Shown: piece after piece, positions 2,620-59,400 of the stretch
How the letters are laid out: every line of letters begins with the position of its first letter
How positions within the stretch are numbered: position 1 is the first letter of the stretch
Virus record (IMG/VR): IMGVR_UViG_3300030330_005471
DNA: 64,000 nucleotides
Strand: one strand, 5' to 3'
DNA from: a virus
Lineage: Duplodnaviria; Caudoviricetes
Notes under the pieces: model-generated
Seen by the model: only the letters and a program-made list of their open reading frames with translations
The model's database searches: none
Told to the model about the DNA's origin: nothing
Translations under genes and position numbers: made by a program

Positions 2620-2676
2620 AAGGTTTATAATTATTGTAAAAAATTTTTTAGGCGAAGACTTTAAAGGAGTAAAACT

Positions 2677-2952
2677 ATGAAAATAACAAAAGAAGAGCTG
2701 CGACAAATTATTCGAGAGGAACTTGAAGCTGTGGTTGATGAGGGATTATTTGGATCAAAGGTTGGAAGACAACTTTCTCCCGACAAATATCATTATGATA
2801 AAAAAGATAAACCAAAGAAAAAAGCAAATTCTGAATATAAAGGTGATGACTATGACGTTGATGATATCAATCAAAAAATGGCAAAGAAATTTGGTGCTAA
2901 ATATAAAAAACTAAAAGAAGAAGAGGAAGAGTCTGAAGAACAAGACTCGTAA
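2677..2952 (+). CDS. small charged protein with MKIT-leader
   Basis: AAGGAG SD; MKITKEELRQIIREELE. Confidence 0.7.
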   Translation: MKITKEELRQIIREELEAVVDEGLFGSKVGRQLSPDKYHYDKKDKPKKKANSEYKGDDYDVDDINQKMAKKFGAKYKKLKEEEEESEEQDS

Positions 2953-2992
2953 ATAAAAGATAAAACGACATAGTTACTTTATAGGAGCTATT

Positions 2993-3541: not shown

Positions 3542-3564
3542 TAGTTACTCTTGGAGGGGTTGCT

Positions 3565-41701: not shown

Positions 41702-42106
41702 ATGATTTTTGCACCTTCTATGCCATTACAGTTCGACGATATAAATGGTTATAAAAACGTCGATGATATAAGAGAGTTGGTTAAATTCCATTTGACCAAT
41801 TTGTTATTAACAAATCCCGGAGAGAAGATAAGTGACCCCAACTATGGAGTAGGTATACGACAATTTTTATTTGAAAACCAAACAGAAGATATGTTTTCTA
41901 GAATAAGAAGTCGTATACGTTCTCAAGTAAGTTCTAATTTAGACTATTTAAGTTTAAGAAATGTTGCGATAAGGAGTCTCGATAACTACGAAAATATGAT
42001 CAATATTCAACTTGTATACAGAATAGATAATATAGATTTGGAAGATATGTTAAATCTTAATTTAAATTTGAATTCTGGTTTGTTGTTTGGTGACACCTCC
42101 TACTAG
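41702..42106 (+). CDS. baseplate wedge subunit, T4 gp25-like
   Basis: LTNLLLTNPGEKI.DPNYGVGIRQFLFE. Confidence 0.88.
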   Translation: MIFAPSMPLQFDDINGYKNVDDIRELVKFHLTNLLLTNPGEKISDPNYGVGIRQFLFENQTEDMFSRIRSRIRSQVSSNLDYLSLRNVAIRSLDNYENMINIQLVYRIDNIDLEDMLNLNLNLNSGLLFGDTSY

Positions 42107-42117
42107 GAAAAATAAAA

Positions 42118-43908
42118 ATGAGTAAAAAACCCGTAATAAAATATACAAACAGAGATTTTGATTCAATAAAATCTAGCCTTGTCGAGCATGCAAAAAGATT
42201 TTACCCTGATCGTTATAATGATTTCAACGAATCTTCGTTTGGCTCCATGATGTTTGACTCTGTTGCTTATGTTGGAGATATAATGTCATATTATATTGAC
42301 TTTCAAGCGAACGAATCTTTCTTGGAAACAGCCCTGCAATATGACAATGTGCGAAGACTATCGGCCCAATTAGGTTATAAGTTCTACGGAAGACCAGCTG
42401 TATATGCTAACTTGACATTTTATATACTAGTTCCAGCCGCAGCTTCTGGCTTAGGTCCAGATACAACTTATATGCCAATATTAAAAAAAGGCTCACAGTT
42501 TGGCTCAACATCTGGTGTAAATTTTATCTTACAACAAGATGTAAATTTTAATGATGATAATGTTGAGATTGTGGCTTCAAAGTTTGACACTACTACAAAC
42601 AAGCCAACAGAATATGCGATTAGGAGTTTTGGTAGGGTTAAGAGCGGAAATCGTTATTATAAGGACATTACCATCGGAGAATTTCAAAGATTTTTAAGAA
42701 TTAGGGTGGGACCATCTGTGATAAATGAAATAGAATCTGTTTTTGATTCTGAGGGACATCAATATTATCAAGTACCTTGTTTAACACATGATGTGATTTA
42801 CAAAGAGACAACGAACCCGACTGCTCAAAGTGATGGAGTTCCTTCAATTTTAAAACCATTCGCAGTTGCAAGAAGGTTTATCCTTGAACAGGACGAGACC
42901 GGTACATATCTTAGATTCGGATATGGTTCAGATACAGAAGGCATAGTTGAGGACGTAACAGATCCAACTCAAGTAGTGCTCAAACAAACCGGCAAAAATC
43001 ACATAACTGATGATGCTTTTGATCCAAACAAGCTTCTTAACAGCGACAAGTTTGGTATTGCTCCTTCAAATACAACTCTTCGAATATTCTATGGTGGTAA
43101 CGCTCAAAGTCAAATTTCTATCGCCATCGGTCAGCTAAATACAGTATCAGAGGCCATTATGGAATTTCCAAATTCTTCAAACACAACCACCGCTCCGTAT
43201 TTAAATGTCAGAGAATCTCTAGAGTGTGCAAATGACTTTGCAATTAGCGAGGACACTTCCCTACCCTCAAGCGATGAACTAAAATACAGAGCGTACGGTA
43301 TATATGCCGCTCAGGGTCGTACCGTGACTAGAAACGATTATGAAGCTTATTGTTATCAAATGCCCCCAAGTCTTGGTGGTATCAAAAGAGCTAATATTGT
43401 GAACGATCCGGGAGGCACAAACAGAAGATTGGCCCTATACGTCATTTCAGAAGATGCCGATGGGCACTTAATGAATACAAAAACAGTTGTTAAGAATAAC
43501 TTGAAAACTTGGCTTTCAAAAAACAAAATGCTGAATGACGGCATTGACATTTTTGATGCTAAAATTATCAATGTTGGCTTTACCTATGAAGCTGTTATTG
43601 ATCCAAACTTGGTTTCCATGACAGTGTTGGCAGATGTTGACGAAAGGTTGAGAAACTTATTCAAAAACAAACTGAATATAGCGGAGCCAATCTATATTAA
43701 CAAAATTTATAACACAATCAACAAAACAGTTGGTGTGATAGATTGCGTTAAAGTGACCATGGAAACAAAAAAAGGAGCTAACTACTCAACAGTGTCTGTT
43801 GATATGGAAGATTTATTATCAGACAAGGGCACCATAGTAGTGTGTCCAAAAAATTGTGTTTTAGAGATAAAATACTTAGACAACGATATCAAAGGAACAG
43901 CAGTGTAA
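42118..43908 (+). CDS. baseplate wedge protein, T4 gp6/J-like
   Basis: YTNRDFDSIK, DFNESS, ESFLETA, LGYK, AQGRTVT..DY. Confidence 0.85.
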   Translation: MSKKPVIKYTNRDFDSIKSSLVEHAKRFYPDRYNDFNESSFGSMMFDSVAYVGDIMSYYIDFQANESFLETALQYDNVRRLSAQLGYKFYGRPAVYANLTFYILVPAAASGLGPDTTYMPILKKGSQFGSTSGVNFILQQDVNFNDDNVEIVASKFDTTTNKPTEYAIRSFGRVKSGNRYYKDITIGEFQRFLRIRVGPSVINEIESVFDSEGHQYYQVPCLTHDVIYKETTNPTAQSDGVPSILKPFAVARRFILEQDETGTYLRFGYGSDTEGIVEDVTDPTQVVLKQTGKNHITDDAFDPNKLLNSDKFGIAPSNTTLRIFYGGNAQSQISIAIGQLNTVSEAIMEFPNSSNTTTAPYLNVRESLECANDFAISEDTSLPSSDELKYRAYGIYAAQGRTVTRNDYEAYCYQMPPSLGGIKRANIVNDPGGTNRRLALYVISEDADGHLMNTKTVVKNNLKTWLSKNKMLNDGIDIFDAKIINVGFTYEAVIDPNLVSMTVLADVDERLRNLFKNKLNIAEPIYINKIYNTINKTVGVIDCVKVTMETKKGANYSTVSVDMEDLLSDKGTIVVCPKNCVLEIKYLDNDIKGTAV

Positions 43909-45326
43909 TGGCAATTTTAAGAATAACAGCTAGTGCTGATAATACAATAACTGACGCTTACGAAGTGAATCTTACAACCAGAGGAACAGGCTCTAACTTG
44001 GGAGCTTCTGATATATTGGAGATATTTTCCATATATGGGCAGCAATCTTCATCTTCATATGAGTATGCGAGAGTCTTAATTCATTTTCCTTTAGACGAAA
44101 TAACAACACGCCGAGCTGCTAATACAATGCCTGCTTCTGGTAGCGTTGAGTTTCATTTAAAATTATACAATGCAATTCACACAGAACAAGTACCAGAAGA
44201 CTTTCAACTTTTTATTGTTCCTATCTCACAAAGTTGGGAAGAAGGAACTGGCTTAGATATGGTCGAGTATACAGATTTAACGTATAATCGCGAGGGTTCC
44301 AATTGGATAAATAGAGCCTCTGGTTCAACTTGGGCAACCCAAGGTGGAGATTATCTATTTGCTGAAGCTCTGACAAGTTCATTTGAGACGGGCTTAGAAG
44401 ACTTAAGTATTGATGTATCTGATATTGTTGAGAAATGGATAAAAGGTTTGGCTGGTGGTTACTACAACAACTATGGTTTCGGAATAAAACTCAGCACTGC
44501 TAACGAAGCAACTCCAGAGTCTTTCTATACCAAAAAGTTCTTTGCAAGAAATACGGAGTTTTATTTTAAAAGACCTGTTATTGAAGCTCGTTGGGATGAC
44601 ACTACGAAAGACGATAGGGGCAACTTTTACTTTAGCTCTTCACTCATGACAGCAGACCAGAATTTAAACAAAATATATCTCTATAATAAGCCTAGAGGAA
44701 GGCTAACAAATATTCCTGCCATCGGTACTGGACAATTGTCTGCTTCGTTATATGAAACTCTGGGTGGCTCTGCTCTGGCAACATTTACAGCTGGTCACTC
44801 TTCGACAGGAATTTATAGTGCGTCTGTTCATCTAACAGGAACACAAAGCAAGTTATATGATGTTTGGCACAACGGAGCAGGAACAGAATATTATACTGGT
44901 TCGATTATACCAAAAACACACACAGCAGAAGAGTATAGTGATAATCAAAAGTATGTCGTGACAATTCGAAACTTGAAATCTAAATATTGCTATGATCAGA
45001 CTGCGAGACTGCGTTTCTACATAAGAAAAAAGAACTGGTCTCCAAATATTTATACAGTTGCACAAAATTCGCCACAAAATCTAATTATTGAAGATGCGGT
45101 TTATAGAACATATAGGATAGAAGATGGAGAAGAAATTATTCCATACAGCACAGGCTCTCTTAAGTTTACTCAACTCTCATACGATGTGTCAGGAAACTAT
45201 GCAGATATTGACTTTTCTTCTTATGAGACAGGGTACCAATACGGGCTACAATTGTCTTTCTATGACGACTATGTGTCTTCTTACGTAGAACAGCCGTATG
45301 TATTCAAATTTAGAGTGGTAGAATAA
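43908..45326 (+). CDS. putative virion structural protein (beta-rich)
   Basis: TAATG coupling to gp6-like; ADNTI, SWEEGTG, W...GGD pattern; rich in [ST]-[GAS]-S. Confidence 0.65.
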   Translation: MAILRITASADNTITDAYEVNLTTRGTGSNLGASDILEIFSIYGQQSSSSYEYARVLIHFPLDEITTRRAANTMPASGSVEFHLKLYNAIHTEQVPEDFQLFIVPISQSWEEGTGLDMVEYTDLTYNREGSNWINRASGSTWATQGGDYLFAEALTSSFETGLEDLSIDVSDIVEKWIKGLAGGYYNNYGFGIKLSTANEATPESFYTKKFFARNTEFYFKRPVIEARWDDTTKDDRGNFYFSSSLMTADQNLNKIYLYNKPRGRLTNIPAIGTGQLSASLYETLGGSALATFTAGHSSTGIYSASVHLTGTQSKLYDVWHNGAGTEYYTGSIIPKTHTAEEYSDNQKYVVTIRNLKSKYCYDQTARLRFYIRKKNWSPNIYTVAQNSPQNLIIEDAVYRTYRIEDGEEIIPYSTGSLKFTQLSYDVSGNYADIDFSSYETGYQYGLQLSFYDDYVSSYVEQPYVFKFRVVE

Positions 45327-48300
45327 TGTCAATAAAGGATTTATTCCAAAATAACAAAACAAATAAAATAATAGAAACAGAGACCATCGCTTCTGCGTCG
45401 GCTGAGGTTGAAGGTGTTTCGCTTGTCCGTGAGAAGTCAAAAGAAAAGGAAGAGTTTATTCCTCCAATAGACTTCGCGACAGCATCAAATTTCGCAAAGT
45501 TCGGATCAGCCGAACTATACTATGAATATGCGTTCAACAGAATCCAACAGCAATATCCATACGATGGGACCTTAGCAGAGAGACAAGAGTTTGAAAACAA
45601 TTCAAGTTATCTTGATCGATATATTTTTAACAATCTATATCCTCGAACAAATGGTTATGTAAACTTTGGTATTAATACCAGTGGCGGCTCAAAAGGTGCT
45701 GATGGTTATTACACAGGTGCGACAAACAAAGAATATATATATGTTGTGGGTGGACCTCACACCGCATCTGACGGAATGACTGGTAAAAAGTTGGATGATA
45801 CTTTCGATCTTTCAACAATATATGACGCATCAAACAAGAGAGAAAACAACTTAAAGATTGACTTAACGGTTGGAAACTCTATTGAGTTTTGGTTGAAAAA
45901 GACCGGCTTTGATTCATCAATAGCCGAGAAAGAAATTATATATGATTCTACAAATTCAGATAACAGACATTTTAGAATATTTTTATCCGCATCGTCAGAT
46001 GGAACTTCCCCGATAAATGTTGAGTTTGCAACAAATGCCACAACATCAAGCTATGGTCTCGGAGCAACCACTCTTACGACTTCATCAATCGCCGATTCGT
46101 CTTGGCATCACTACGCAATAACAATGCTCAGCCAATCAACAGGTATAAAAACCCGTCTGTACGTTGACTCAGTGCTTAATAGAGAACAAGTGGTGTCTTC
46201 CCCTTGGGATGATATTAAGACGTCCACAAACGGCGTTATAGCAGCTTTAGGAGCTAAAGTTTCTGACACCAAAGGAGACGGACAGTTAATATCTTCTTCT
46301 ATGGATGAATTTCGCTTTTGGAAGTCCGAGAGAACAGGAAAACAAATCGGACAAAACTGGTTTGTGAATCTTGGAGGTGGAACAGATGATAGTTTAGACA
46401 ATATCGATCTTGGTGTGTACTTTAAGTTTAACGAAGGTATAACAACAACTGCGACAACAGATTCGATTGTTCTCGATTATTCTGGTCGTTTATCGAATGG
46501 CGAGTTTGTTGGATACACTTCAACATCCAGAAATACCGGCTCTGCTATAGTGTTATCAGGGCAAACAGATCGAGAATACAAAGATCCAATTATATACTCA
46601 ACACACCCAGACGTAAGTGCTAAGAAGACAGAACTTATGGAATTAGGTAACATAGCAGATCATGAGAATACAAGTCTCTTTTATCACCTTTTACCCTCTT
46701 GGTTAGTTGAGAACGATTCTGCCACAGGAAAGAATATTAAATATCTTTGTCAAATAATGGCGAGTTATTTTGATACTTTACATGCCCAAATTTCCTATAT
46801 GAATCATATCAAGGATGAAAAGTATTTCGGTCCCGAACTAGAAAAAGATGACTTCACTGGTAAACAGTATGTTTCGTTTAGTGATCAAGACAAGCCTTAT
46901 CCGTTTTCACAACAACTATTGAGGCATCGTGGTTTTATTGTTCCAAACTTATTTGTGGATGCGAACTTAGTAGAAGAGTTTTTGGAACATGACGTTAACG
47001 AAAAGTATGATCGAGATATTACCGAGGTTAAAAACCTTATCTATCAAAACCTTTATAACAATATTATTGACATATATAAGTCAAAAGGAACAGAAAAGTC
47101 TTTTCAAAGATACCTTAAAAACTTTGGGGTTGATTCCGATTTGGTTAAACTCAATCTATATGCTGATCGAGCAACATATACATTAAGAGACAACTATGAA
47201 TACAAATCTGTAAAAACAAATGGTGCAAACTTTAACAATGCGGACAATACGGATGCATCAATTTATCAAGTTTCTTCTAGTGAGGGACGCACAATATATA
47301 ACAGTCTCCACTTAGACGCCACTCTTGCATACTCTGGAACCTTAGCCTTCGATGGGAGTGACCTATCACCAACTAGTTCTTTCAGTATTAGTTGGTGGGG
47401 CAAGCCAAAAAAACGAGACGGGGCAATAGATCAAGCACTATTCAGTTTGGGAGACACCTCATATACCCCGACGCAAAACCAACTCAGGATGAAATATAGC
47501 CCCAGCAGTCCCATTAGAGCTCATATTGCTTATAGAGGTCTCAATTCAGCAGGTGAAAGTAGTTTTTTAGATGCGTATTATCCCCAAACACAAACATTCG
47601 ACTCAGACGATTTTGCCACTAATTGGTATCACTATGTCTTTACATTAGAGATTAACGATTCTGGTAATGAACACACAGCATCGTTTTATCGAGATGGTGT
47701 TGAGATACCAGCATATCTAGCCACAGCACAACAAACATATTCTTCACCAGCAGATTTAGCACAAACCAACAAAACTTTTTTTATAGGAAGTCGACATGGA
47801 ACTAACGAGAGTCGGAATAAATTTAGAGATGTGATATTGTGGAACGGCGTACTTACCCCATCTCAGGTAAGTGATTTACACCAAGCCAGTGCTTCTTATG
47901 GCTCTCCAGAATATTCACCGGCAGGTTTAACAAAATTGATTTGGATGAAGCCTGATGGAGATACTGCGAACAATGTCAGATCATTGCAAAATTTCGGCTC
48001 AGCTGGTCCTGCTGTGTTGGGGGACGATGAAGGTAGTTCATACGGAACTGCTAATTCTAATGATATTAATGATATAGTTGCTGATGCTCCTTTTGACGAT
48101 GTCCTTGCTTATCGAAAAGGGTATATACAAAATCCAAATGCTAATACAAAATACTCTGCTTATACTTTAGAAGCTGAGGTTTTATTTCCTAGGCAACCCT
48201 CAACAGACTCAAGTGATTATTACGATAAGTCATTCACAACAGCTTCTATTATTGGTTTCCACCGTATCGATCCAGACCCATATCCTTATGATGAGTATAC

Positions 48301-51300
48301 GTTTCACTCAAACGACAAGACGTTGAAAGTTCTCATCGCCAGTACAACAAACAGAGAACATAGTCAGTTTATTGTTACAGGTTCAGATGGAATACGTTTA
48401 ACATCATCAGTTATTCCAAATCTCTATGACGAGCAAAAGTGGAATATTGCCTTGAGAGTTAAAAATTCTAAGTACCCATTGGCGAATCTAACAGGAGCTG
48501 TCGATTCAGTGTCTGTAGATGTTGATTTTTATGCGGTATGTACAGAAGATAATACAATATATAACACAGTTACGATGAGCACTTCGTCAATAGCAAATGG
48601 AGAACTATATCTTAGCTCAAGCAGAAAGATTTTCGTTGGTGCCGAAAAAACAAATTTCACAGGCTCATCTGTGACCTTTTCTGATGTTGTTGTAACCGAT
48701 GTAAAGTATTGGCAGAGTTATATTAGCAACGAAGAAGTACAACAACATGCTTTTGATTCTGAGGCATTTGGGGTTCGTCACCCACTTGAGAATGATTCTA
48801 TATTCTTAATTGATAATGTATCCATTCCTCAAAAAGATACTTTGGCCTTACATTGGGACTTTGAAAACAATACACAATCCGATAGTGGTGGAGGCTTTAC
48901 TGTTTACGATGTTTCTTCTGGTTCTTCCGGAATGACAAATAGATATGGATGGATGAGCGAAATAACAAAAAACAAACATCTTGGACAAGGAATAGATTTT
49001 GTAACAAATTCAAACAAAGCATTTGATAAAATATACCTTTCAACAGCGAGAAGAAGAATACCTTCTTCCATCTACACATCGGATATGGTGGCGGTAATTA
49101 CCGGCTCAGCTGAAGTGTTTTTTCAAGACGACGAGGTTAGAGATAACTTTTATTCATTCGAAAAAAGCATGCAAGCCGTTATATCAGACGAAGTTGTAAA
49201 AATGTTTGCAACAGTTGTTGGTTTCAATAACTTGATCGGTCAACCAGAGAACAAGTATCGTCCAAATTATAAAAACATGGACTTTCTCAGACAACAATTT
49301 TTTGAATCTATTGAAAATGAACCAGATCAAGAAAAATTCTTTGAGTTTTACAAATGGATTGATGATTCTATATCCTATGGTATCAAACAACTATATCCAG
49401 CTTCTGCTAGGTTTTCTGATGGAATTATGAACACAATTGAGAGTCATGTGCTAGAGAGACCAAAGCATCAAAATAAGTTTCCAATGCTGTCCCCTTCTAC
49501 ACCTGAAATTGCTCAAATGATGTCACATAATGAACAAAAGTACCAGTGGGGACAAGGACATGCTCCGAACTACAAAACACTTTCCAATCTTAGCAATGTT
49601 CATTGCGCATGGCAGAGTCAAAGAAACGAAGACACAAACTCAGATGAAAACAATATTCGCAGAGTTATCAACACACAGAGACCACTCCCCAAGAATATAC
49701 TAAGAAAAGCCGATGGAACATTTTATTACAGAGAACAAGATGTTAAGTCTTTTCACAATAGACCATATAGTTTCGATGCAGTGCAAAGAAACACCATACA
49801 TGGTGGAATAAATTACGAAATAAACAAAAATAGAGAAATATATAAAGAATATATTCGCCCACATGGAGAAGTGAACGAATTTGGAATTCCAAGAAATGTG
49901 TTTGCTGTTGGCATCGGAGCAGGACAAGGCATAGTTTCTACTAAGCAATGCGACGATGTGACAAACACTATCTCAAAGAAAAAACTGCCTTTCGAAATGT
50001 TAGTTGGAAGGAACTCCGATCAAGATGGAAATCATCCCCTAGATGATGCTCATAGTTATGAACATCTTGTCAAGGGAAACCATTTCGGACCATTTAATTT
50101 ATTCTCAGCATCTATCGAGCCACAGGGTTATCATGCCATCGTAAGTGCTTCTTTTAAAACAGATACTTTAATAACAAATTTACATTCAGATACAACAGAT
50201 CTTTCGAATGAAATACCAATGCAAGGTCCGTTCACTCAGACACATATTGGTGGGAGACAATCTCGACACTTGACTATCAACAGACACGATACGACGTTAA
50301 TAACGGAAGGTGGAGGAGCAACTACAAACAACATTGACGACCAATACTCAAGAGCAGAAGAATGGAGAATGTTCTTTGGAGAAGCCCCTGATGAGGCCAT
50401 TAAGGATGGTGTTTTTGCATTAGTCGGTCCAGATTATGGTGGACCATATCCCGATCCTTCGAGGCCAATTGCTCGTTGGTATCGAGACGGAAGGACAAAA
50501 AGACACTTTTCAATTGAAAATATTAAAAGCAATTCGCGTGTCATGGGTAACTACAAAAATAACTATGAAGTAATTGCTGCTGTTGGAAGGAAGGAAAACA
50601 ACCTTCGATATCGTTCAATATCAGACACAGTAGACTTCATTGAACCGGGTTTGAAAACAGAGCTCCCAGATACAACGGTTAATGCCAGTTTAATAGCCCA
50701 GAAAGCCTCATCAGCAGGCAATGTGGCTGGAGTAAGTACTAACCTCTTTCGAACAGCTGTGGAGGGTTTTAGAACCCCTGAAGAGCCCGGAAACCACGAT
50801 GATAATTCTGCCACCAAATCTATTATTGTAAGCAAATTCTCAGCTCCCGGATCATTTGAGACCTCAACAAGAATATTCTTGGATGGAGTTGACGGAGAAC
50901 GAAGTGTATACAACGCCTTACCTTTTAGGAATCTAACTGTTCGTTCAAGCGGTTCCGGTGAAGCTGATCACAGAAGGCTCGATAGTCATATAAACAAACG
51001 TGAAGGTCTTCAAACAATGTTAAGAAGACATCTCGGAAGGTTTGGTGTTGATCCTATTCACGGACCATCACATCCAAATACAGATTCAGAAGGTATCGCT
51101 TCGGGTTCATATGATATTCTCTCAAACAGACAAAAGCAGCATAGAAACAATCATTGGAAAAACAAAGAATATGAAGTAACTTGTTCAGTACCATCATACT
51201 CATCCGGATCCTTTTCTGTTTTGGGCATGTCTTATACGGGCTCATTTGCAACCGGCTCATTTACCGTAACAGGCTCTACGATATATGGCACCGCAGCTTC

Positions 51301-54300
51301 TGGTTCATTCCACATGTCTGGTGCATATTATGGCGGACAGCAAGCATCAGCCTCATTTAAGATTATTGGAAGATCAATAAATGCCGCCCCTGCTAGTGGC
51401 TCATTCACAGTTAAAGGTAGAAACGTCCCAGCAGCATATCCGACAGCTAACTTTCAAATTTCACCAGTTCCGAGATACGGAGATCGAGCAGCTGTTGGGA
51501 TAAAATATACAAAAAATTATGGTGATTCCACTACTAGTACAATAAACTATGTTGCTAGTCCATATAATAATTCTGAATTTGAAATTGCTAGCTCCACACA
51601 CACTGACAAAACAGTAGTAATTAAAACTATAGCACCTCATGTCACGACCGCCGTGAATCACCTTTATATGCCCACATGGGAATATAGAAAGTATTTAAAA
51701 ACCAATGGAACCAAGTGGGTTCCAAAATCAGGTTACAACTATTCAATAACTCAAAATGCCTCAAATGACGCCGTCGATGGCGATAATGCTGGTTTTTTGG
51801 TTTCGTTTTGGATAAGGATAGATTCATCCGAATGGTCAGGTTTTGATACTTCTAATGTATATCCGATTTTATGGATAAGAGATGCTAATGGCGCCACCAG
51901 TATTAAAATTTATGTAAAAAAATCAGGTTCTAATTATCACCTATATGCAGAGAGACATTTTGACCAAACACCATCCAACACTGCGGGAAAATATACTCAA
52001 ACATATTGGAACAGCTTTTTCAATTCAGCTAATTATGGAGATGGAGAATGGCACCATCTTGTTTTAAATTTCGATAATTTCATTTGGAATGACGCAGGTG
52101 CTGTTCAAGGAGGGGGCGGATATATTGGAGGAGACGCAGGTGTTAATGTACCAAATGGAGTAGATCCAGCCGACATTGATGGTGATCAAGGAAATGCACA
52201 ATCCATTCAAGCATCTCCATTTAACACACATGATGCTTCCGGTGGTGGCCGAGGAGGAATGGGATGGAACCTTTGGGTAAATAAAACACACTATGTTACC
52301 TCAAGGTTTAATGGAGCTTTAGCATTTTCTCCTTTGTATGACGAAGGGTCGAGTGCCAACACTTCTGTGCCTCGTGCACTTCATGTGTTAGAACAAATAG
52401 GAACAGCAATAGATGGCGGTTGTTTTAATTTTGATATAGATGAGATGATTATGTTTAGTACATCATACTCTTTAACTCCTCACGACGTAACTGATGATGA
52501 GCCAACAATTATATACGGAGATACAAATTGGAACAATGGAACTAACTCGAAAGTCGCAACAGACAACGCGGATAATGTCTCAACCACACTACTACCTAGT
52601 CCTTCCGAGTTGTTTAATGCTCACTCTGTCGATACAGCGTTTGGAACTTGGCTAGATCTCTCAACTCTTTCTTCTAACAAGAGAAGCAGAATTTTTGCTT
52701 ATTATAGTTTGGAAGCAACACCGGGGGATTTGTTTTATAGTATAAATCCTGCCAATAATAATCCATCTGATCCTCTCAATGAATATGTTGAACTTGATGC
52801 CGGATCTGGATACGAAAATCCCGAAAGAAATGATGGCGCGCCTTTTGGCTTGTATATCAATAGGGCCGATCAGAGGTTTAGTAATACAAATCCAAAATCA
52901 GTAAGTACCTTTCTAGATGATGTTATGGGGTTGTTTACCGGCAGTTTCGATATGAAGGAACATCAAGCAGCTAACGACTATACAAATAATGTCGTCACAG
53001 CTTATCGAGACACCATAGAAACTGATACAGGTTTCGTAGTGACAACTACCAGCTTAAACGGTATTATGTCCTTTGAAACAGTTAAATCTCATTATGCTAC
53101 AAAAGCCGGAACAATAGATAGGACACAAACTGTGTCAGTCGCCGGAACTACCTATAGCAATATTAAACACCACAGTTATTTAGATATTGGAGATTTTAAC
53201 ACCTTCGGTTCCGGCTCAGGAGCAGCAACTGTTTCTGATGGACATACTCATCGTTATTCAACAAGAGGGTTAAGATGGGTTGGAGAAACTGACGGATCAG
53301 CTGCCGAACAAGGGCCTTACTTATATAACCATGATATTAGCGATGCTGGTGTAATTGGTTCAACTCAAGATTTGACAATTTCTTTCTGGGCCAAGGTTGC
53401 CAACACTGACAATAGTAGTAAATACGTTTTTGTTTTTGCCGACGACACAGGCGATCAAGACTTGACTGATGGAGAGAGAAGTATTTTTGTTTATTTCTAT
53501 GAAGATGATCTTAAAATCAGAATGTATAGTGGCACTGGTAATTATATAACATATACCATACCGGCTGTTGTTGATACAAACAGATATCAACATTATTGTA
53601 TCGTACTAGATAGAAGTCAAATGACCACTCATGGCTCACAAGCAGTGTATATTGACGGAGAAGCGGTTAGTGTTCCAGCTGGTGTGCAAAGTGGAAGCCC
53701 TACCGCATCTAACAGAGCTATCAGGAGAATTTTCATTGGAGACCATCCGGCTGCTTCCAGTCTTTATGAATATAAAGGTCATTTAACGCAAGTGTCTTTA
53801 TGGAAAACAAAAATGATATCCTCGCGTGTTGAAGAACTCTATAATAAAGGAAGGTGGAAAGATTTGTTGTCTCATCGAGAATGGGAACATTGCATAGCAT
53901 GGTGGCAACTAGGAGATGAAACCGGCGTCAGTATTAGTGGTTATAGTAACGGACACCCTTTAGATGGAGATTATGTTCAAAGCTCAGAAACCGTGTTGGG
54001 CAATGGAGCAACATTGGAACAAGAATATAAAGATTATTCACCTTTTGGACAATTTGATTTAACCCTTGTTGCACCAGATTCTGGAGTAAAAGTGTCTCAT
54101 GGGATAATAAAAGAAACAGCGAATGAACATAATGCAACTAAAACCGACACTTATGAATTTTGGTCTCATGTGAAAGACAAGATTCTCTCTCAAGCCAATA
54201 TCTCAGCCGTAACAGCCAGAACGAGTGGAGGCTCTGGTACAGAGGGGAATATAAATTCTGCCACTGATAGTGGTAGTATAAACATGACATATAACACACA

Positions 54301-56425
54301 AACAGACTACACAGACGCAGTTACAGAAACTGGGGATACATTTGGTAGTCCGTCTGGTTTTTCTGGTGGAACTTCGGGCGCTGGTGTTCAAGCAGGACAT
54401 ACGTTTGTGATTGATGGAGAAACATTCGAGATAACTACTGGTGGAGTTTGGGGTGGGGGCCCCAACAGACCAGTATCAGCAGATACTTCAACAGACCAAG
54501 AGTTTTGGGGTAATTTAAGTGGAGCAATAAAGACACATACAGATTTTGACACCATAACAACAGGATCGGGAGGAGCAACTACAACATTCAGCATAACATC
54601 TAGTGTTAACGGAACAGCTGATAATGGTGTTCTCTCCACAGGAATAGGAGATTCTTTTTCAATAGTCCAACAAACAACAGGAGGAGTAGATACTGCTGGT
54701 GCTAGAGATGGCCATGATATAAGAATAACAAACGCAGTGGGACCACCTTCTCACAAATTCTTGTTTTATAGGATAGATGCTGAACACGATGAAACTGACG
54801 GCACAAGTGTTAAATATATTCAGTCCGCTCAATCAACAGATGTTGCTTTTTGGGATCAGTTCCAAACTGTTCTTAATACCAATTTTGCTTCTGATAATCA
54901 AGTAACTGCTTCGTATGTCAACAATGGAGACGGAACAGCCACCTTTACAATAAAAACAACAGACAGTACTACAGTTTGGAATAATGGAGGATCAAACCCT
55001 AGTGCTATAAATCTTTGGCTCAACGACGCAGTGGATGCCACTACATTCCCACAGATAAATGCCGATGCTACTCCCGGAACAGCTTATCATTACTTTGGAG
55101 GAGGAGCAGAAGCTTCTGGTTCTCAACCCGGACACCAGATAGAAATCGCTGGGACGACTATTACTTTGAAAACAGCATCCGTGGGACCAAATGATGTTAA
55201 TATTTCTTCTAGTAGAACAGACCAACAAGTTTGGAATGATATGGATGCATTAATCGATAGCTTCACAAATTATTCAGCATTGCAAGTTGGCGCTGGGCCC
55301 GGTGGAACAAGAGAATTTTTAGTTACTCACGATAACACAGGTTCCGGCAATAGTCCAAACATATCATCAGCTCATGGCTCCTTTGGAGGTATATCAAATT
55401 ATGATGGACAAAGTGAACTTGGTGCCAATGATCCGCACACAATAACAATCGCTGGTGTTGTTTTTGAGATCAGCAATGAACAACCAGCCGGACAACAGAC
55501 AGGTGGTAGTATAATGATATCAGCCTCTGCAGGTTCTGGTAGTGGTGAGGAAATATCAAACGTAGCTTTCTGGAATAATATGCAAGCAACAATGTCTGCT
55601 AATTTACCAAACCATACTGCCTCTTATGTGGACAATGGAAATTCAACAGCAACGTTCGCAATATCAGCATCAACGACAGGTATATCTGGAGATGCCACAA
55701 TGTCAACAACAGGTGGTTCTTTTACAAGCTTAAACAATATAACTGGGGGTGCTGATGGTTTTAGCGGAGTTCAACAAGAACACGGCATAACCCTATATCT
55801 AAGCGGTGGTACAACTCAAACCTATTGGTATAAAGTAGACTTGGAGAATTCAATAACCGACACCAGTATTATTCACGCACCAGATCTTGGTTCAATTTCT
55901 TCTAGTACAAATTCATCGAACTTTGCCTCTAAAAATCTAGAGTTCTGGGGTATATTGTCTCAATCGATAAAAGATAGAACGATATTTGATACCGTCACTA
56001 TTACGCCATACGCTGACAATTTGTCTGCTTCTTTTGCATTCACAGCATCAGCAACGGGTTCACAACATAATGGCGAAATCAGAGAGACTAGGTTTGATGT
56101 TGAGGCTCTAAACTCTTCATTTGATGATGGTGGAGACCCGGGCCTTATTAGAGGTGGAGTAACCTACAGGTGTTGGAATGTGAGTGGTTCGAACTTTACC
56201 AAAACATACGATAACTTCTTCAAGGCAACACAACTACCAGCAACAGATTATCAATATCCTTGGATTCACAATAATACAAAAAATGAATATCACCCAACAG
56301 GTAGTAGTACCGGTAGTAAACAATATACATTAAGATATGCAGATGCAACAGGAAAAATATTATCAAACGGAGTGTACTATAATACATTGAATTTCCCAAC
56401 TGCTTCCATATTTACATTAGACTAG
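45326..56425 (+). CDS. giant (3699 aa) virion protein with about five LamG/concanavalin-like domains and repeated stalk domains
   Basis: LamG motifs SIEFWLK/WHHYAIT/MDEFRFW, SISWWGK/WYHYVFT, VSFWIR/WHHLVL, TISFWAK/YQHYCIV/LTQVSLW; five FW-containing ~100-140-aa repeats near the C-terminus. Confidence 0.8.
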   Translation: MSIKDLFQNNKTNKIIETETIASASAEVEGVSLVREKSKEKEEFIPPIDFATASNFAKFGSAELYYEYAFNRIQQQYPYDGTLAERQEFENNSSYLDRYIFNNLYPRTNGYVNFGINTSGGSKGADGYYTGATNKEYIYVVGGPHTASDGMTGKKLDDTFDLSTIYDASNKRENNLKIDLTVGNSIEFWLKKTGFDSSIAEKEIIYDSTNSDNRHFRIFLSASSDGTSPINVEFATNATTSSYGLGATTLTTSSIADSSWHHYAITMLSQSTGIKTRLYVDSVLNREQVVSSPWDDIKTSTNGVIAALGAKVSDTKGDGQLISSSMDEFRFWKSERTGKQIGQNWFVNLGGGTDDSLDNIDLGVYFKFNEGITTTATTDSIVLDYSGRLSNGEFVGYTSTSRNTGSAIVLSGQTDREYKDPIIYSTHPDVSAKKTELMELGNIADHENTSLFYHLLPSWLVENDSATGKNIKYLCQIMASYFDTLHAQISYMNHIKDEKYFGPELEKDDFTGKQYVSFSDQDKPYPFSQQLLRHRGFIVPNLFVDANLVEEFLEHDVNEKYDRDITEVKNLIYQNLYNNIIDIYKSKGTEKSFQRYLKNFGVDSDLVKLNLYADRATYTLRDNYEYKSVKTNGANFNNADNTDASIYQVSSSEGRTIYNSLHLDATLAYSGTLAFDGSDLSPTSSFSISWWGKPKKRDGAIDQALFSLGDTSYTPTQNQLRMKYSPSSPIRAHIAYRGLNSAGESSFLDAYYPQTQTFDSDDFATNWYHYVFTLEINDSGNEHTASFYRDGVEIPAYLATAQQTYSSPADLAQTNKTFFIGSRHGTNESRNKFRDVILWNGVLTPSQVSDLHQASASYGSPEYSPAGLTKLIWMKPDGDTANNVRSLQNFGSAGPAVLGDDEGSSYGTANSNDINDIVADAPFDDVLAYRKGYIQNPNANTKYSAYTLEAEVLFPRQPSTDSSDYYDKSFTTASIIGFHRIDPDPYPYDEYTFHSNDKTLKVLIASTTNREHSQFIVTGSDGIRLTSSVIPNLYDEQKWNIALRVKNSKYPLANLTGAVDSVSVDVDFYAVCTEDNTIYNTVTMSTSSIANGELYLSSSRKIFVGAEKTNFTGSSVTFSDVVVTDVKYWQSYISNEEVQQHAFDSEAFGVRHPLENDSIFLIDNVSIPQKDTLALHWDFENNTQSDSGGGFTVYDVSSGSSGMTNRYGWMSEITKNKHLGQGIDFVTNSNKAFDKIYLSTARRRIPSSIYTSDMVAVITGSAEVFFQDDEVRDNFYSFEKSMQAVISDEVVKMFATVVGFNNLIGQPENKYRPNYKNMDFLRQQFFESIENEPDQEKFFEFYKWIDDSISYGIKQLYPASARFSDGIMNTIESHVLERPKHQNKFPMLSPSTPEIAQMMSHNEQKYQWGQGHAPNYKTLSNLSNVHCAWQSQRNEDTNSDENNIRRVINTQRPLPKNILRKADGTFYYREQDVKSFHNRPYSFDAVQRNTIHGGINYEINKNREIYKEYIRPHGEVNEFGIPRNVFAVGIGAGQGIVSTKQCDDVTNTISKKKLPFEMLVGRNSDQDGNHPLDDAHSYEHLVKGNHFGPFNLFSASIEPQGYHAIVSASFKTDTLITNLHSDTTDLSNEIPMQGPFTQTHIGGRQSRHLTINRHDTTLITEGGGATTNNIDDQYSRAEEWRMFFGEAPDEAIKDGVFALVGPDYGGPYPDPSRPIARWYRDGRTKRHFSIENIKSNSRVMGNYKNNYEVIAAVGRKENNLRYRSISDTVDFIEPGLKTELPDTTVNASLIAQKASSAGNVAGVSTNLFRTAVEGFRTPEEPGNHDDNSATKSIIVSKFSAPGSFETSTRIFLDGVDGERSVYNALPFRNLTVRSSGSGEADHRRLDSHINKREGLQTMLRRHLGRFGVDPIHGPSHPNTDSEGIASGSYDILSNRQKQHRNNHWKNKEYEVTCSVPSYSSGSFSVLGMSYTGSFATGSFTVTGSTIYGTAASGSFHMSGAYYGGQQASASFKIIGRSINAAPASGSFTVKGRNVPAAYPTANFQISPVPRYGDRAAVGIKYTKNYGDSTTSTINYVASPYNNSEFEIASSTHTDKTVVIKTIAPHVTTAVNHLYMPTWEYRKYLKTNGTKWVPKSGYNYSITQNASNDAVDGDNAGFLVSFWIRIDSSEWSGFDTSNVYPILWIRDANGATSIKIYVKKSGSNYHLYAERHFDQTPSNTAGKYTQTYWNSFFNSANYGDGEWHHLVLNFDNFIWNDAGAVQGGGGYIGGDAGVNVPNGVDPADIDGDQGNAQSIQASPFNTHDASGGGRGGMGWNLWVNKTHYVTSRFNGALAFSPLYDEGSSANTSVPRALHVLEQIGTAIDGGCFNFDIDEMIMFSTSYSLTPHDVTDDEPTIIYGDTNWNNGTNSKVATDNADNVSTTLLPSPSELFNAHSVDTAFGTWLDLSTLSSNKRSRIFAYYSLEATPGDLFYSINPANNNPSDPLNEYVELDAGSGYENPERNDGAPFGLYINRADQRFSNTNPKSVSTFLDDVMGLFTGSFDMKEHQAANDYTNNVVTAYRDTIETDTGFVVTTTSLNGIMSFETVKSHYATKAGTIDRTQTVSVAGTTYSNIKHHSYLDIGDFNTFGSGSGAATVSDGHTHRYSTRGLRWVGETDGSAAEQGPYLYNHDISDAGVIGSTQDLTISFWAKVANTDNSSKYVFVFADDTGDQDLTDGERSIFVYFYEDDLKIRMYSGTGNYITYTIPAVVDTNRYQHYCIVLDRSQMTTHGSQAVYIDGEAVSVPAGVQSGSPTASNRAIRRIFIGDHPAASSLYEYKGHLTQVSLWKTKMISSRVEELYNKGRWKDLLSHREWEHCIAWWQLGDETGVSISGYSNGHPLDGDYVQSSETVLGNGATLEQEYKDYSPFGQFDLTLVAPDSGVKVSHGIIKETANEHNATKTDTYEFWSHVKDKILSQANISAVTARTSGGSGTEGNINSATDSGSINMTYNTQTDYTDAVTETGDTFGSPSGFSGGTSGAGVQAGHTFVIDGETFEITTGGVWGGGPNRPVSADTSTDQEFWGNLSGAIKTHTDFDTITTGSGGATTTFSITSSVNGTADNGVLSTGIGDSFSIVQQTTGGVDTAGARDGHDIRITNAVGPPSHKFLFYRIDAEHDETDGTSVKYIQSAQSTDVAFWDQFQTVLNTNFASDNQVTASYVNNGDGTATFTIKTTDSTTVWNNGGSNPSAINLWLNDAVDATTFPQINADATPGTAYHYFGGGAEASGSQPGHQIEIAGTTITLKTASVGPNDVNISSSRTDQQVWNDMDALIDSFTNYSALQVGAGPGGTREFLVTHDNTGSGNSPNISSAHGSFGGISNYDGQSELGANDPHTITIAGVVFEISNEQPAGQQTGGSIMISASAGSGSGEEISNVAFWNNMQATMSANLPNHTASYVDNGNSTATFAISASTTGISGDATMSTTGGSFTSLNNITGGADGFSGVQQEHGITLYLSGGTTQTYWYKVDLENSITDTSIIHAPDLGSISSSTNSSNFASKNLEFWGILSQSIKDRTIFDTVTITPYADNLSASFAFTASATGSQHNGEIRETRFDVEALNSSFDDGGDPGLIRGGVTYRCWNVSGSNFTKTYDNFFKATQLPATDYQYPWIHNNTKNEYHPTGSSTGSKQYTLRYADATGKILSNGVYYNTLNFPTASIFTLD

Positions 56426-56436
56426 TGGAGAAATAG

Positions 56437-59400
56437 ATGGCAAATTTAATTAAAGATTTTATAGGAATGAACATATTGGTAAATGATCCAATTGAGGATG
56501 AGACCAATGCTCATGGACAAGACACCAATACTTTTGGTTGCACGACTTCTAATTCTTCTTATTCGATAAGTACATCCTTGAGTGAAAGCAAAGTGTTACC
56601 AATATTGTTGACTCACCGTAATGGCCCTTGGGGATATTGCTCTTGGAAACAGATAAGAACAGGCGATAACGCAATTACTCGAAGACAAAGAAAGAATAAT
56701 AAATTAACTTTCGTAAAAGCACCGGTTGAAAAAATATTCTTTGAAGATGGAAAGCGTCGCGTAGTTCCTCTTAAGGACGCAACAATACAAATATATGACG
56801 AACCAGCAGTGGTTTCAAAGCATCAACCGCTGACTATAAACCTATACAGGCAAAGCGGAAGATCTCCAATGTCTCGCGTTTCTCTATTTGCAGATTACAA
56901 CAATAGAATAACTTTTATGTCAAATGATGAAGTCAATTCTCATGCACAAGTTTCTGATATAGAATCAGAACCATATAAGCAAACTTCCAAAATGTATCTT
57001 GGTCGTGCACTCAGGAATCCGTCGAATGTGATAAAGAAATTCGAGTCTTTAAAATTTGCTCAAACCGTTTATCCACCAGAAAAATATACTTTCAAATCAT
57101 ATACAAGAGCAAGAAGTGATGATGATCGTTATGAATACTGGAGAGATTCGAGGCAAAATAGAACAACACAATCATCTGATGGTTTTAGTATCGCTATTAA
57201 CTCTCCAGAGCATGAATCTTCTTGGCCTTTGGATGTATCTGAAGAATGGTTAACGAGAACAAACAATTTAATAACATACCATGGAAAAGACAATGTGGAC
57301 AAAACAAACTCGTTTGGTATATTATGGAATAATTATTCCTTTGCCTATGACGAAACAGACAGTGGTTTTTTATCTCTGAGTCTTAATGCCAAGTTGCGAC
57401 CTGCTTGTTTTTATTCTAGAAGGCATATTATGACATATTCACAATCAGTAGCAAATCCATCAGGTCGACCAGACTTAGTGCCATCTTCTAACATTCCATT
57501 TGGGGAAACTTTTGGCGGTGAAGCATATTGGGATACTCCTATCCAAAGCGGAAAAAAGCCTTTCTATGACACAATATCAGATTACTATGAGGAGTTAAGA
57601 CCAATTTATAAAGATTACTCTATCATACCAGAATTTTCTATGGAACAAAATATAGATTTTTATTTAAATAACGGTATAACTGAAGAAAATTCAACAATGT
57701 TTAATATTGTTGGAGGCGATCAAAATAGAAATGATTCATCTAAACAAGATTTTTACGAAACTTATTCAATGTCAGATTTTCTTAAGAACTTTAATATCGT
57801 TGTTGAAGATCACAAAGATGTGGTTAAACCCTCAACAATTTCATTGACTTGTAAGGCTGTTAAGAAATTTATTCCCTATGAAGGCTTTTACCCCGCTCAA
57901 AGAACCGTTCAGATAGCTCAAACATTTTATGATTCTTATTCAGACAATATTACATTCAAGGATGGTGCTACATTCTTTGCGACACATGGCTCACAATACC
58001 ATTCTGCTCAAGCTTTACTTCAACCATTGTTTGCACCGGGAGTTCTGTTTAATACTATAAAATCTGGCGTCGCGTGTGACTTTTTAACTTACAGCTCAGC
58101 CAGTCAAAATCTTGGGATCATATCATATGATCAAGGTGTTGCTGTGGCTGACTTGTACGGTTTGCAACATTGTAAAGACAGTGTACAAAGAATTCCTTTT
58201 GATGCTTTGTTGGATCCCGAAGAATATTTGGCTAATGAAGAATTTCTTTTGGCTGATTTCCACAGTGCTAGCTACCTCTCCCTTACAAGTTCAGCCATAT
58301 GGGATGGACAAGGTAAGAGAAACTATAAACTTATGGTCGATAACTTCCTAGCAGAAGTGCCAGAATTTTTTCTAAAAAACAAGAACTTTACGAGAATAGT
58401 TTCACAAGAACAAGGCAATCCAAACTTTGGAAATGCTGAGGCTGGAAAAACATATGGAATGAGAGTTAAAATGTATCGTTCAATGGATTCTGGTAGGGGA
58501 GCATTTGTGACCGGCTCTTTTAGTTATCTACCTCCTCAAGATATCGGAGAAGCCAGAGAAACACTAACAATGTATTCCAGACCATCAGCATTCGGTCCCG
58601 AGATAGCAACTGGCTCTGCTGCTTTAGCTTGTTTTGGCACATATGCATCAAAAAATGGATATAATTTTGTGTATACTCCTCCATACTATCATGGAGCAGC
58701 ATACGCAGATATATACTTTACAGCAACTGAGAGTAAAAAGTATACAATAGCTGAGATATTTAATAGTGCTTCTGTAGAATACTATCGCCTATATGATCAC
58801 AATCCACCAGCTGGCCAAAACAACAACAACGCTAACTATTATGCGATGCAGTTGGATGCATCTGTGAATCTATTTGGCCTAGCAGATCCTCCAGACGAAG
58901 AGATTCCCAATGAATATATGTACGATTCAGACGGCGACGGTTTAGTAGATAAGAGAGTTACCAGAATAAATGTAATTGAAAATGCAAATGCACGGTGGGC
59001 TATTCAAACAAAGTTTGAGTGTCCAATATTAAATTTTAACACAATGCAAACTAGCTCCATGACAATGCCGACAAAAGGAGCTGCTTCTGTTCCTATAGGA
59101 ATGTGGCACCAATATGGTGTCGAACCTAGTGGCTCTGAAGGTGTGTTTTTACAAGTTCACAACATCCCAAAAAATTGGAGAGCAGTTGTTAAAAATACAG
59201 GCACTGATGCACAACGTATAGCATCTGCTAAACTGACTGGTTCGCTGAATCACCTAATGGGTTTTTCAAATGAGCCGGTAAAACTTGGAGAAATGGCTAA
59301 CTCAAAAATGCTTGAAGAGGCTGTGATTGCTATTCCGTTTTTTGAAGAAAATGGAGTTCGAAAATTCTTTCCTATTCCACGAACAGATATTAATAATGCT

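What the first reader, a model, noticed from the sequence alone, without database searches (positions are those of the whole stretch)
51182..56173. Matryoshka (nested-insertion) stalk architecture in the 3699-aa virion protein
Seen: at ~51200-51510, short strands spaced ~11-14 aa apart: SSGSFSVLG, ATGSFTVTG, ASGSFHMSG, ASASFKIIG, ASGSFTVKG, then degenerate PTANFQISP and AAVGIKY. About 950 aa later, beyond two LamG domains, lie five homologous ~100-140-aa units starting GVQAGH (~54380), GARDGH (54698), GSQPGH (55118), GANDPH (55421) and GVQQEH (55766), each with an (F/V)W helix and a T-x-F strand. Two more degenerate units each bracket a LamG. Single Cys residues flank the whole segment (51182, 56171). 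Inference: each domain is inserted into a loop of the previous one. The chain runs out donating one strand per domain and returns to complete them, giving a seven-domain antenna tipped with lectin-like heads, possibly clamped at its base by a disulfide.
Basis: partly seen in the sequence, partly recalled or inferred. Interest (0 to 1): 0.8.

Follow-up and report, generated by a model that had tools for sequence, protein, structure and literature searches.

The report
Nested-domain stalk in giant phage baseplate protein
A 3699-residue baseplate-region protein of an uncultured marine phage carries a loop insertion that most likely forms a rod of seven homologous small domains nested one inside the next, with lectin-like heads at the tip. 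Relatives carry the same design with 1 to about 11 layers, but no structure model confirmed the strand pairing.

Summary
ORF 45326-56425 encodes 3699 aa. Five GSF-type strands sit on an exact 16-aa lattice (aa 1959-2031), followed by two degenerate ones. Five homologous alpha/beta units (aa 3015-3600) follow two degenerate units that each hold a LamG-like domain.

In 16 relatives, strand number equals unit number in 13-14 cases, from 1:1 to about 11:11 (Spearman 0.99). Strand subtype tracks unit subtype only in the nested register: r=0.41, against about 0 for shifted or parallel pairings (permutation p<0.0005).

The module is a loop insertion found at two alternative sites of a conserved core. 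In single-domain relatives the strand lies directly before the unit body. The unit fold resembles the insertion domains of myophage tail sheaths and FliD D3 (Z 6-7), proteins already known for "Russian doll" nesting.

Limits:
- Both AlphaFold runs were too poor to show strand pairing.
- The register test on this protein alone is only suggestive (top 10%).
- The flanking Cys pair is absent in the closest relatives.

Verdict: nested out-and-back stalk, confidence about 0.72. It is a new, unusually deep and length-tunable variant of a known architecture.

The parts
45326..56425 (+). ORF of the 3699-aa protein (P0001), stop included
   Evidence: It follows gp25-like and gp6-like baseplate wedge genes.
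45326..51181 (+). Conserved core, N part (aa 1-1952). It holds two more Laminin_G_3 domains, at about aa 181-341 and 672-850.
   Evidence: 82 IMG/VR relatives of this part. Pfam on pieces.
51182..51184 (+). Cys1953, six residues before strand 1
   Evidence: Not conserved in P0002 or P0041.
51200..51418 (+). Strands 1-5 of the outward path (aa 1959-2031): GSF-type, exact 16-aa period
51440..51508 (+). Degenerate strands 6 and 7 (aa 2039-2047 and 2055-2061). They align with the conserved two innermost strands of P0005, P0007, P0009 and P0013.
51536..51595 (+). Unit 1, first hairpin (about aa 2071-2090); boundaries read by eye
   Evidence: by likeness to the first hairpin of the clear units
51653..52600 (+). 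LamG-1, probable divergent concanavalin-like domain with a Gly-rich insert (about aa 2110-2425), lying inside unit 1
   Evidence: No Pfam hit. hhalign against the LamG profile: probability 89.5%, E 2e-6. AF2 pLDDT only 50-66.
52898..53095 (+). Unit 1, helix and last strands (about aa 2525-2590)
   Evidence: Weak HMM hit at aa 2552-2582; boundaries read by eye
53117..53173 (+). Unit 2, first hairpin (about aa 2598-2616)
   Evidence: Read by eye; aligns with the pre-LamG hairpin of P0003
53348..53818 (+). LamG-2, Laminin_G_3 domain (aa 2675-2831), lying inside unit 2
   Evidence: Pfam E 4e-15, 56.7 bits against a cut-off of 27.6. 34% identity to the LamG of P0003. AF2 pLDDT 65-84.
54134..54361 (+). 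Unit 2, helix and last strands (aa 2937-3012)
   Evidence: HMM half-unit hit at aa 2937-2988; helix-part hit at aa 2944
54368..54682 (+). Unit 3 (aa 3015-3119)
54683..55102 (+). Unit 4 (aa 3120-3259)
55103..55405 (+). Unit 5 (aa 3260-3360)
55406..55750 (+). Unit 6 (aa 3361-3475)
55751..56125 (+). Unit 7 (aa 3476-3600), outermost; closest to the last unit of P0002
56171..56173 (+). Cys3616
   Evidence: absent in P0002
56174..56422 (+). Conserved core, C-terminal tail (aa 3617-3699) with the DYxYxW motif
41702..42106 (+). Neighbour: gp25-like baseplate wedge protein
   Evidence: Pfam GPW_gp25, E 1.1e-11
42118..43908 (+). Neighbour: gp6-like baseplate wedge subunit
   Evidence: PHROG 10646, 6 and 219, E 1e-15 to 4e-18

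Best explanation
P0001 is a peripheral baseplate or tail-fibre-position protein of an uncultured marine myovirus-type phage. Its conserved core (aa 1-1952 and 3617-3699) has a loop at which the chain leaves the core.

The chain runs outward as seven short beta strands spaced 16 aa apart. It reaches a tip that carries a LamG-like head, then returns through seven alpha/beta unit bodies. Each outward strand is inferred to be the first strand (beta0) of one unit: strand 7 with unit 1, and so on to strand 1 with unit 7. Each domain is therefore inserted between beta0 and beta1 of the next one out. LamG-1 is inserted in unit 1 and LamG-2 in unit 2.

The result would be a two-path, jointed rod. Assuming about 3.5-4 nm per unit, it is roughly 25-30 nm long. 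It would hold lectin-like heads away from the baseplate, most likely to catch host surface glycans. The rod length is tuned in evolution by adding or removing whole layers.

Shown:
- the repeats
- the matched counts
- the register-specific similarity
- the loop-insertion nature of the module
- the identity of LamG-2
- the baseplate gene context

Inferred:
- the physical pairing of strands with units
- rod shape and length
- glycan binding
For: 1. Matched numbers. In 16 unit-bearing proteins, strands:units are P0045 1:1; P0002, P0041 and P0039 2:2; P0038 and P0040 3:3; P0037 3:3-4; P0003 5:5; P0004 6:6; P0006 6:6-7; P0001 7:7; P0005 and P0013 8:8; P0007 and P0009 8:7-8; P0008 11:9-11. Spearman is 0.99, with 13-14 of 16 exact, and no random re-pairing in 100000 reached that.

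2. A close relative with a different count. P0002 is the syntenic ortholog on a TARA Oceans scaffold, 81% identical in the core, yet it is 2:2 where P0001 is 7:7.

3. Register. Across 8 proteins, strand-strand similarity correlates with the similarity of the partner units only when strand k from the N side is paired with unit k from the C side. That pairing gives r=0.41. Shifts of +-1 and +-2 give -0.04, -0.03, -0.24 and -0.10, and parallel pairing gives -0.01. The 2000 random pairings have mean 0, sd 0.10 and max 0.36. Of 28 protein pairs, 25 are positive. With 5 collinear pairs left out, r=0.35 and p=0.0003.

4. Independent amplification. In P0004, strands 1-4 resemble each other and so do the four outer units. 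The two arrays were therefore amplified separately to equal numbers.

5. Loop insertion. The spacing between the core anchors FSAPG and DYxYxW is 91-125 aa in relatives without a stalk there, 439 aa in P0002 and 1803 aa in P0001. Other relatives carry the same module at a second site, between QGPFT and FSAPG: 168-246 aa without it and 341-1619 aa with it. The two ends of the module must therefore lie close together.

6. Contiguity. The last strand runs straight into unit 1. In single-domain relatives (P0045, L003, L072) and in the three tandem units of L056, the strand lies directly before the unit body.

7. Constant period. The 16-aa period holds in all N arrays.

8. Fold. Strand plus unit of the P0002 model (residues 24-165) resembles domains that are themselves inserted in their hosts:
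- Mu sheath residues 98-215: Z 7.0-7.1, rmsd 4.1-4.3, 108-109 aligned
- FliD D3, 5fhy: Z 6.3-6.4
- other myophage sheath insertion domains: Z 5.6-6.5

9. Precedent. Nested insertion is documented for sheath proteins (PMC6088184) and for flagellin and FliD (PMC8306008).
Against: No model shows the pairing.
- In the AF2 model of the 2:2 stalk of P0002, the outer strand has pLDDT below 50 and no secondary structure.
- The AF2 model of P0001 aa 2036-3014 has mean pLDDT 45.7.

Other weaknesses:
- For P0001 alone the nested assignment ranks 244 of 2520, and its within-protein matrix test is null at r=-0.13. The register evidence is therefore at family level.
- Strand and inner-unit counts were partly read by eye. 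Units that hold a LamG give ambiguous HMM halves, so some counts carry +-1.
- The proteins are related, so the 16 rows are not independent.
- Each unit also ends in its own GSF-like strand, so a unit might form a closed sheet without the N-side strand.
- The fold-match Z scores of 5-7 are in the range the tool calls common.
Confidence: 0.72

Rival explanations
1. The strands complement units of a neighbouring chain rather than their own. This would be a donor-strand or domain-swapped oligomer, for example a fibre of two or three chains. The counts and register would be the same, but the rod would be held together between chains.
For: Matched counts and the mirrored register do not tell cis from trans. 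Baseplate and fibre proteins are usually oligomers (general knowledge).
Against: The innermost strand is joined to unit 1 by only a few residues, so at least that layer is in cis. The module sits in a loop of the core with both ends together, which a cis hairpin satisfies without further assumptions. No data on oligomeric state were obtained.
Confidence: 0.12
2. The N-side array is an independent element, such as a beta meander, a spacer or a glycosylated linker, that does not pair with the units. The equal numbers arise only because both arrays are inherited together as one block.
For: AF2 did not dock the outer strand. Each unit ends in its own GSF-like strand. Differences between relatives such as P0001 and P0002 could be single contiguous deletions.
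Against: A contiguous deletion or block swap has no reason to keep the numbers equal, yet 13-14 of 16 are equal over a range of 1 to 11. P0004 shows separate amplification of four strands and four units. Subtype similarity follows only the nested register and vanishes at a shift of one. The G-S-F core of the strands is the best conserved motif of the module.
Confidence: 0.12
3. The pattern is chance or low-complexity sequence in a Ser/Thr/Gly-rich protein, without structural meaning.
For: The region is rich in S, T and G. There is no DNA-level repeat.
Against: Five motif copies lie on one 16-aa lattice, against none with 3 or more in 20000 shuffles. Unit HMM E-values are 1e-34 to 1e-39. The same two arrays recur in 62 proteins of a 1.84-billion-protein library.
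Confidence: 0.01

Closest known systems
Contractile-tail sheath proteins (T4 gp18, Mu gpL, diffocin CD1363): 'Russian doll' domain insertion
   Same: Outer domains are insertions into inner ones, so each host domain is made of an N-side and a C-side piece (PMC6088184). The inserted sheath domains of Mu, Milano, E217, PhiTE, XM1 and A-1(L) are the best structural matches of strand plus unit (Z 5.6-7.1).
   Different: Sheaths nest 2-4 unlike domains. Here 7 homologous copies of one small domain are nested in series (1 to about 11 in relatives), and the N-side piece of each is reduced to a single strand on a fixed 16-aa lattice. There is no sequence similarity to sheath proteins.
Flagellin and the cap protein FliD (D0-D1-D2-D3 hairpin architecture)
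   Same: [quoted passage not shown] FliD D3 matches strand plus unit at Z 6.0-6.4. Flagellin outer domains match at Z 5.4.
   Different: Those domains are not repeats of one another and go at most three or four deep. Their base is a coiled coil, not a baseplate protein core. A FliD_C Pfam hit was seen only below threshold, in one relative (L003, E 0.027).
Laminin_G_3 / concanavalin-like lectin domains of phage fibre and baseplate proteins
   Same: LamG-2 meets the Pfam threshold. Such domains commonly act as carbohydrate-binding heads (general knowledge).
   Different: Here the LamG is itself inserted between the first hairpin and the helix of a stalk unit. No ligand is known.
Donor-strand complementation in chaperone-usher pili and archaeal cannulae
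   Same: An incomplete beta sandwich is completed by a strand supplied from elsewhere.
   Different: In those systems the strand comes from another subunit. Here it most likely comes from the same chain, about 900-1600 residues upstream. The fold is different.

Membership tests
Serial nested ('Russian doll') domain insertion | Every host domain has one piece before and one piece after the inserted domain, so the numbers of pieces match | tested here: met
   Strand and unit counts are equal in 13-14 of 16 relatives, from 1 to about 11. P0001 is 7:7.
Serial nested ('Russian doll') domain insertion | Mirrored order: the first N-side piece belongs with the last C-side piece | tested here: met
   At family level, r=0.41 for the nested register against about 0 for shifted or parallel pairings, permutation p<0.0005. 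For P0001 alone the result is only suggestive: rank 244 of 2520.
Serial nested ('Russian doll') domain insertion | The whole module enters and leaves its host at one loop | tested here: met
   Core anchor spacing is 91-125 aa without the module and 439 or 1803 aa with it. A second insertion site is used in other relatives.
Serial nested ('Russian doll') domain insertion | Physical pairing of the N-side strand with the sheet of its C-side unit | tested here: inconclusive
   AF2 models are too poor at the strands, and the tools give no contact maps.
Pfam PF13385 Laminin_G_3 | Score above the gathering threshold | tested here: met
   LamG-2, aa 2675-2831: 56.7 bits against 27.6.
Pfam PF13385 Laminin_G_3 (LamG-1, about aa 2110-2425) | Score above the gathering threshold | tested here: not met
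   No Pfam hit at E<=1. Profile-profile comparison gives probability 89.5%, E 2e-6 over the C-terminal half only. It is LamG-like, but not shown to be a member.
FliD D3 / myophage sheath insertion-domain fold | Structural match well above background that covers the domain | tested here: inconclusive
   Z 6.0-7.1 with 99-110 residues aligned and rmsd 3.8-4.3. The tool states that Z below 8 may be a common arrangement. The model pLDDT there is 60-90.
Tail fibre or receptor-binding protein of a P2/Mu-like baseplate module | Gene position after the gp25-like, gp6-like and gpI-like genes | tested here: met
   The gene order is gp25-like, gp6-like, a 494-aa ORF, then P0001. The same order is seen on the TARA scaffold. 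Gene position is only weak evidence of function.
Tail fibre or receptor-binding protein of a P2/Mu-like baseplate module | Sequence or structural homology to known fibre proteins; presence in virions; binding of a host receptor | not testable with these tools
   There is no hit in PHROGs, in the INPHARED phages or in PDB sequences. The phage is uncultured.

The most novel reading that the evidence does not exclude
Phages build length-adjustable rigid antennae by recursion. One small alpha/beta domain is inserted into itself again and again, 1 to about 11 times. The outward path is reduced to a ladder of single strands at a fixed 16-aa pitch, and selection keeps the two distant arrays equal in number. 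If so, this would be the deepest serial nesting of homologous domains that I know of. It would be a portable 'telescopic' module that can be dropped into different loops of a baseplate protein to place lectin heads at set distances.
Probability: 0.65. Interest if true: 0.78.

Novelty: new variant of a known kind. Interest (0 to 1): 0.68.

Why it matters
Nested domain insertion is known for two to four unlike domains in sheath proteins and flagellins. This family appears to use it as a repeatable building rule. It gives a natural series of 1 to about 11 layers, in which two arrays up to 1600 residues apart must stay matched.

- Protein folding and design: it raises the question of how such a chain folds when the outermost domain cannot close until the whole chain is made. 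It also offers a template for rods of programmable length.
- Phage biology: it points to a hypervariable, length-tuned receptor-binding organ in abundant uncultured marine phages. Two near-identical gene clusters differ by five layers.
- Annotation: it explains why these giant proteins escape annotation. There is no Pfam or PHROG family for the unit, and a whole-protein scan returns nothing.

Tried and rejected
- Complex prediction. P0001 aa 3010-3625 against aa 1950-2075, with own alignments: ipSAE 0.39, 0.21 and 0.31 against a mark of 0.32. No verdict, so not used either way.
- AF2 of P0002 aa 1800-2188 with a 43-row alignment. Mean pLDDT 59.6. Unit cores were usable, but the outer strand was unplaced.
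- AF2 of P0001 aa 2036-3014 with 13 rows. Mean pLDDT 45.7. Only LamG-2 was usable, so I ran no fold search on it.
- MAFFT alignment of whole stalks from 13 proteins. It put strands and units of different layers in the same rows, so I did not use it for folding.
- Family and sequence searches with no result:
  - Whole-protein Pfam and PHROG scans: no hit, although pieces do hit Laminin_G_3.
  - tblastn of the core against 50,697 phage records: no match.
  - PDB sequence searches with the core and with the unit profile: nothing.
  - Pfam on single units: only sub-threshold noise.
  - ESM Atlas by features: only unnamed viral clusters.
- Tandem Repeats Finder on the DNA: nothing.
- Within-protein strand/unit matrix test. 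Significant only for P0005 and null for P0001.
- Strand type (Pro-rich tail) against LamG-bearing units. It fits the nested pairing, but in P0003, P0008 and P0040 it fits the parallel pairing equally well because the number of layers is odd. I did not count it as evidence.
- Literature searches for a described nested stalk in phage baseplate or fibre proteins: none found.
- Disulfide clamp: considered, and set aside as a conserved feature because both Cys are absent in P0002 and P0041.
Full report
**The gene and its setting.** The finding lies in one ORF, 45326-56425 on the + strand, which encodes 3699 aa (P0001). Upstream are a gp25-like baseplate wedge gene (41702-42106; Pfam GPW_gp25, E 1e-11), a gp6-like wedge gene (42118-43908; PHROGs, E 1e-15 to 4e-18) and a 494-aa ORF. 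P0001 therefore sits where P2/Mu-like baseplate modules carry their fibre gene. This is inferred from position only.

The same gene order occurs on a TARA Oceans scaffold and two other marine assemblies. Those carry P0002, whose core is 81% identical to P0001. IMG/VR holds 82 relatives of the N-terminal 1950 aa. None is found among 50,697 deposited phage genomes, in PHROGs or among PDB sequences. The source is an uncultured marine phage lineage.

**Check of the observation.** All the listed strings are present at the stated coordinates.
- The five clear strands share the core G/A-S-F-x-hydrophobic.
- No shuffle of the protein out of 20000 put three such motifs on one lattice.
- Two degenerate strands follow at aa 2039 and 2055.
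- The five C-side units (aa 3015-3600) are 26-33% identical to each other. Each scores E 1e-34 to 1e-39 against their profile.
- Half-unit hits at aa 2937-2988 and, weakly, at aa 2552-2582 mark the C-terminal halves of two further units. Each of these encloses a LamG-like domain between its first hairpin and its helix.
- LamG-2 is a Laminin_G_3 domain (E 4e-15). LamG-1 is only probable (hhalign 89.5%).
- The whole-protein Pfam scan returned nothing, although pieces hit. The core holds two more Laminin_G_3 domains.
- Cys1953 and Cys3616 exist.

A profile of the units searched against 1.84 billion representative proteins found 62 proteins, many of them fragments. In every full-length one, an array of GSF-type strands with the same 16-aa pitch lies upstream of the units.

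Strand:unit counts are as follows:

| Protein(s) | Strands:units |
|---|---|
| P0045 | 1:1 |
| P0002, P0041, P0039 | 2:2 |
| P0038, P0040 | 3:3 |
| P0037 | 3:3-4 |
| P0003 | 5:5 |
| P0004 | 6:6 |
| P0006 | 6:6-7 |
| P0001 | 7:7 |
| P0005, P0013 | 8:8 |
| P0007, P0009 | 8:7-8 |
| P0008 | 11:9-11 |

The +-1 ranges come from LamG-bearing inner units, whose HMM halves overlap. Spearman is 0.99 and 13-14 of 16 counts are exact. Some counts were read by eye, and the proteins are related. However, the count changes between close relatives: P0001 is 7:7 and P0002 is 2:2. About 50 IMG/VR relatives that lack units also lack the strand array.

**Register.** I numbered strands from the N side and plain units from the C side in eight proteins. 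I then asked whether two strands that resemble each other have partner units that resemble each other.
- In the nested register, r=0.41 over 729 cells.
- Shifts of one or two layers give -0.04, -0.03, -0.24 and -0.10. Parallel pairing gives -0.01.
- The 2000 random pairings have sd 0.10 and never reach 0.41.
- Of 28 protein pairs, 25 are positive, including pairs with different numbers of layers.
- Leaving out five collinear pairs gives r=0.35, p=0.0003.
- The matrices also show that in P0004 the four outer strands are alike and the four outer units are alike. That means two separate amplifications ended at the same number.
- For P0001 alone the nested assignment is in the top 10% (rank 244 of 2520), and its within-protein test is null. 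The register rests on the family, not on this protein by itself.

**Topology from chain continuity.** Between the core motifs FSAPG and DYxYxW, relatives without a stalk have 91-125 aa, P0002 has 439 and P0001 has 1803. Other relatives carry the module at a second site, between QGPFT and FSAPG: 168-246 aa without it and 341-1619 aa with it. A module that can occupy two different loops must begin and end at nearly the same point in space.

At the other end, the last strand runs straight into unit 1. In single-domain relatives (P0045, L003, L072) and in the three tandem units of L056, the strand directly precedes the unit body. It is therefore the first strand of the domain. With both ends fixed, equal numbers and a pitch of 16 aa per layer, the out-and-back arrangement is the simplest one.

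**Fold.** In the AF2 model of the P0002 stalk, the unit cores reach pLDDT 70-90 and the inner strand is modelled as a strand. Strand plus unit (residues 24-165) aligns best with these domains:
- the inserted domain of the Mu tail sheath: Z 7.0-7.1, 108-109 residues, rmsd 4.1-4.3
- FliD D3: Z 6.0-6.4
- other myophage sheath insertions and flagellin outer domains: Z 5.4-6.5

These Z values are middling. Still, the top of an exhaustive search consists almost wholly of domains that are themselves insertions in their hosts. [quoted passage not shown] The unit has no Pfam family.

**What was not shown.** No prediction placed the outer strands. The complex job gave no verdict, and the tools give no contacts. 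Pairing between chains rather than within a chain cannot be excluded.

The disulfide idea is weak. Both Cys are absent in P0002 and P0041. Their joint presence in P0001 and joint absence in P0002 is curious, but rests on a single comparison.

Rod length (about 25-30 nm, assuming 3.5-4 nm per unit) and glycan binding by the LamG heads are inferences.

**Verdict.** The nested-insertion reading is the best explanation, at about 0.72. The principle is known from sheaths and flagellar proteins. A serial, homologous nesting of 7 layers (up to about 11 in relatives), with a one-strand outward ladder and matched, adjustable numbers, was not found in the literature searched.

Noticed in passing
window 45326-56425 (P0001 aa 181-341, 672-850, 2675-2831): hmmscan of the whole 3699-aa protein returns no Pfam family. 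The same library gives three clear Laminin_G_3 hits (E 7e-13, 2e-10, 4e-15) when pieces are scanned. Giant proteins of this kind may be under-annotated for that reason.
   Followed up: partly
L056:9998-18925 (IMG/VR 3300021197_001584), protein aa 1515-1770: This relative has three units in plain tandem, each directly preceded by its own GSF strand. This is the un-nested arrangement of the same parts. It is followed by a LamG and by another short repeat at aa 2080-2230.
   Followed up: partly
P0008 (5421 aa, representative library), aa 1483-1660 and 1640-4400: The strand array has a 32-aa super-repeat in which a GSF strand with a Pro-rich tail alternates with a Q-x-Y-x-F strand. The unit array alternates LamG-bearing and plain units, with about 11 layers of each.
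   Followed up: partly
core of P0001 and relatives (motifs QGPFT, FSAPG, DYxYxW): The stalk module occupies two alternative loops of the core in different relatives. Most IMG/VR relatives have neither and instead carry a long C-terminal extension of 1400-2100 aa after the DYxYxW motif.
   Followed up: partly
window 35022-41654, 56437-60030, 60030-61037, 61037-63721: Four large neighbouring ORFs (2210, 1197, 335 and 894 aa) have no Pfam or PHROG hit. All are syntenic on the TARA scaffold that carries P0002.
   Followed up: no
window 51200-51420 and unit linkers: The S-G-S and T-G-S tripeptides that another reader of this scan noted as saturating these virion proteins are, in this segment, part of the conserved strand motif (A-S-G-S-F) and of the Gly/Ser linkers between units. 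I did not test whether they are also glycosylation sites.
   Followed up: no
window 50563-50913 (- strand): A 116-aa ORF lies on the opposite strand inside the giant gene. I did not examine it; it is probably spurious.
   Followed up: no
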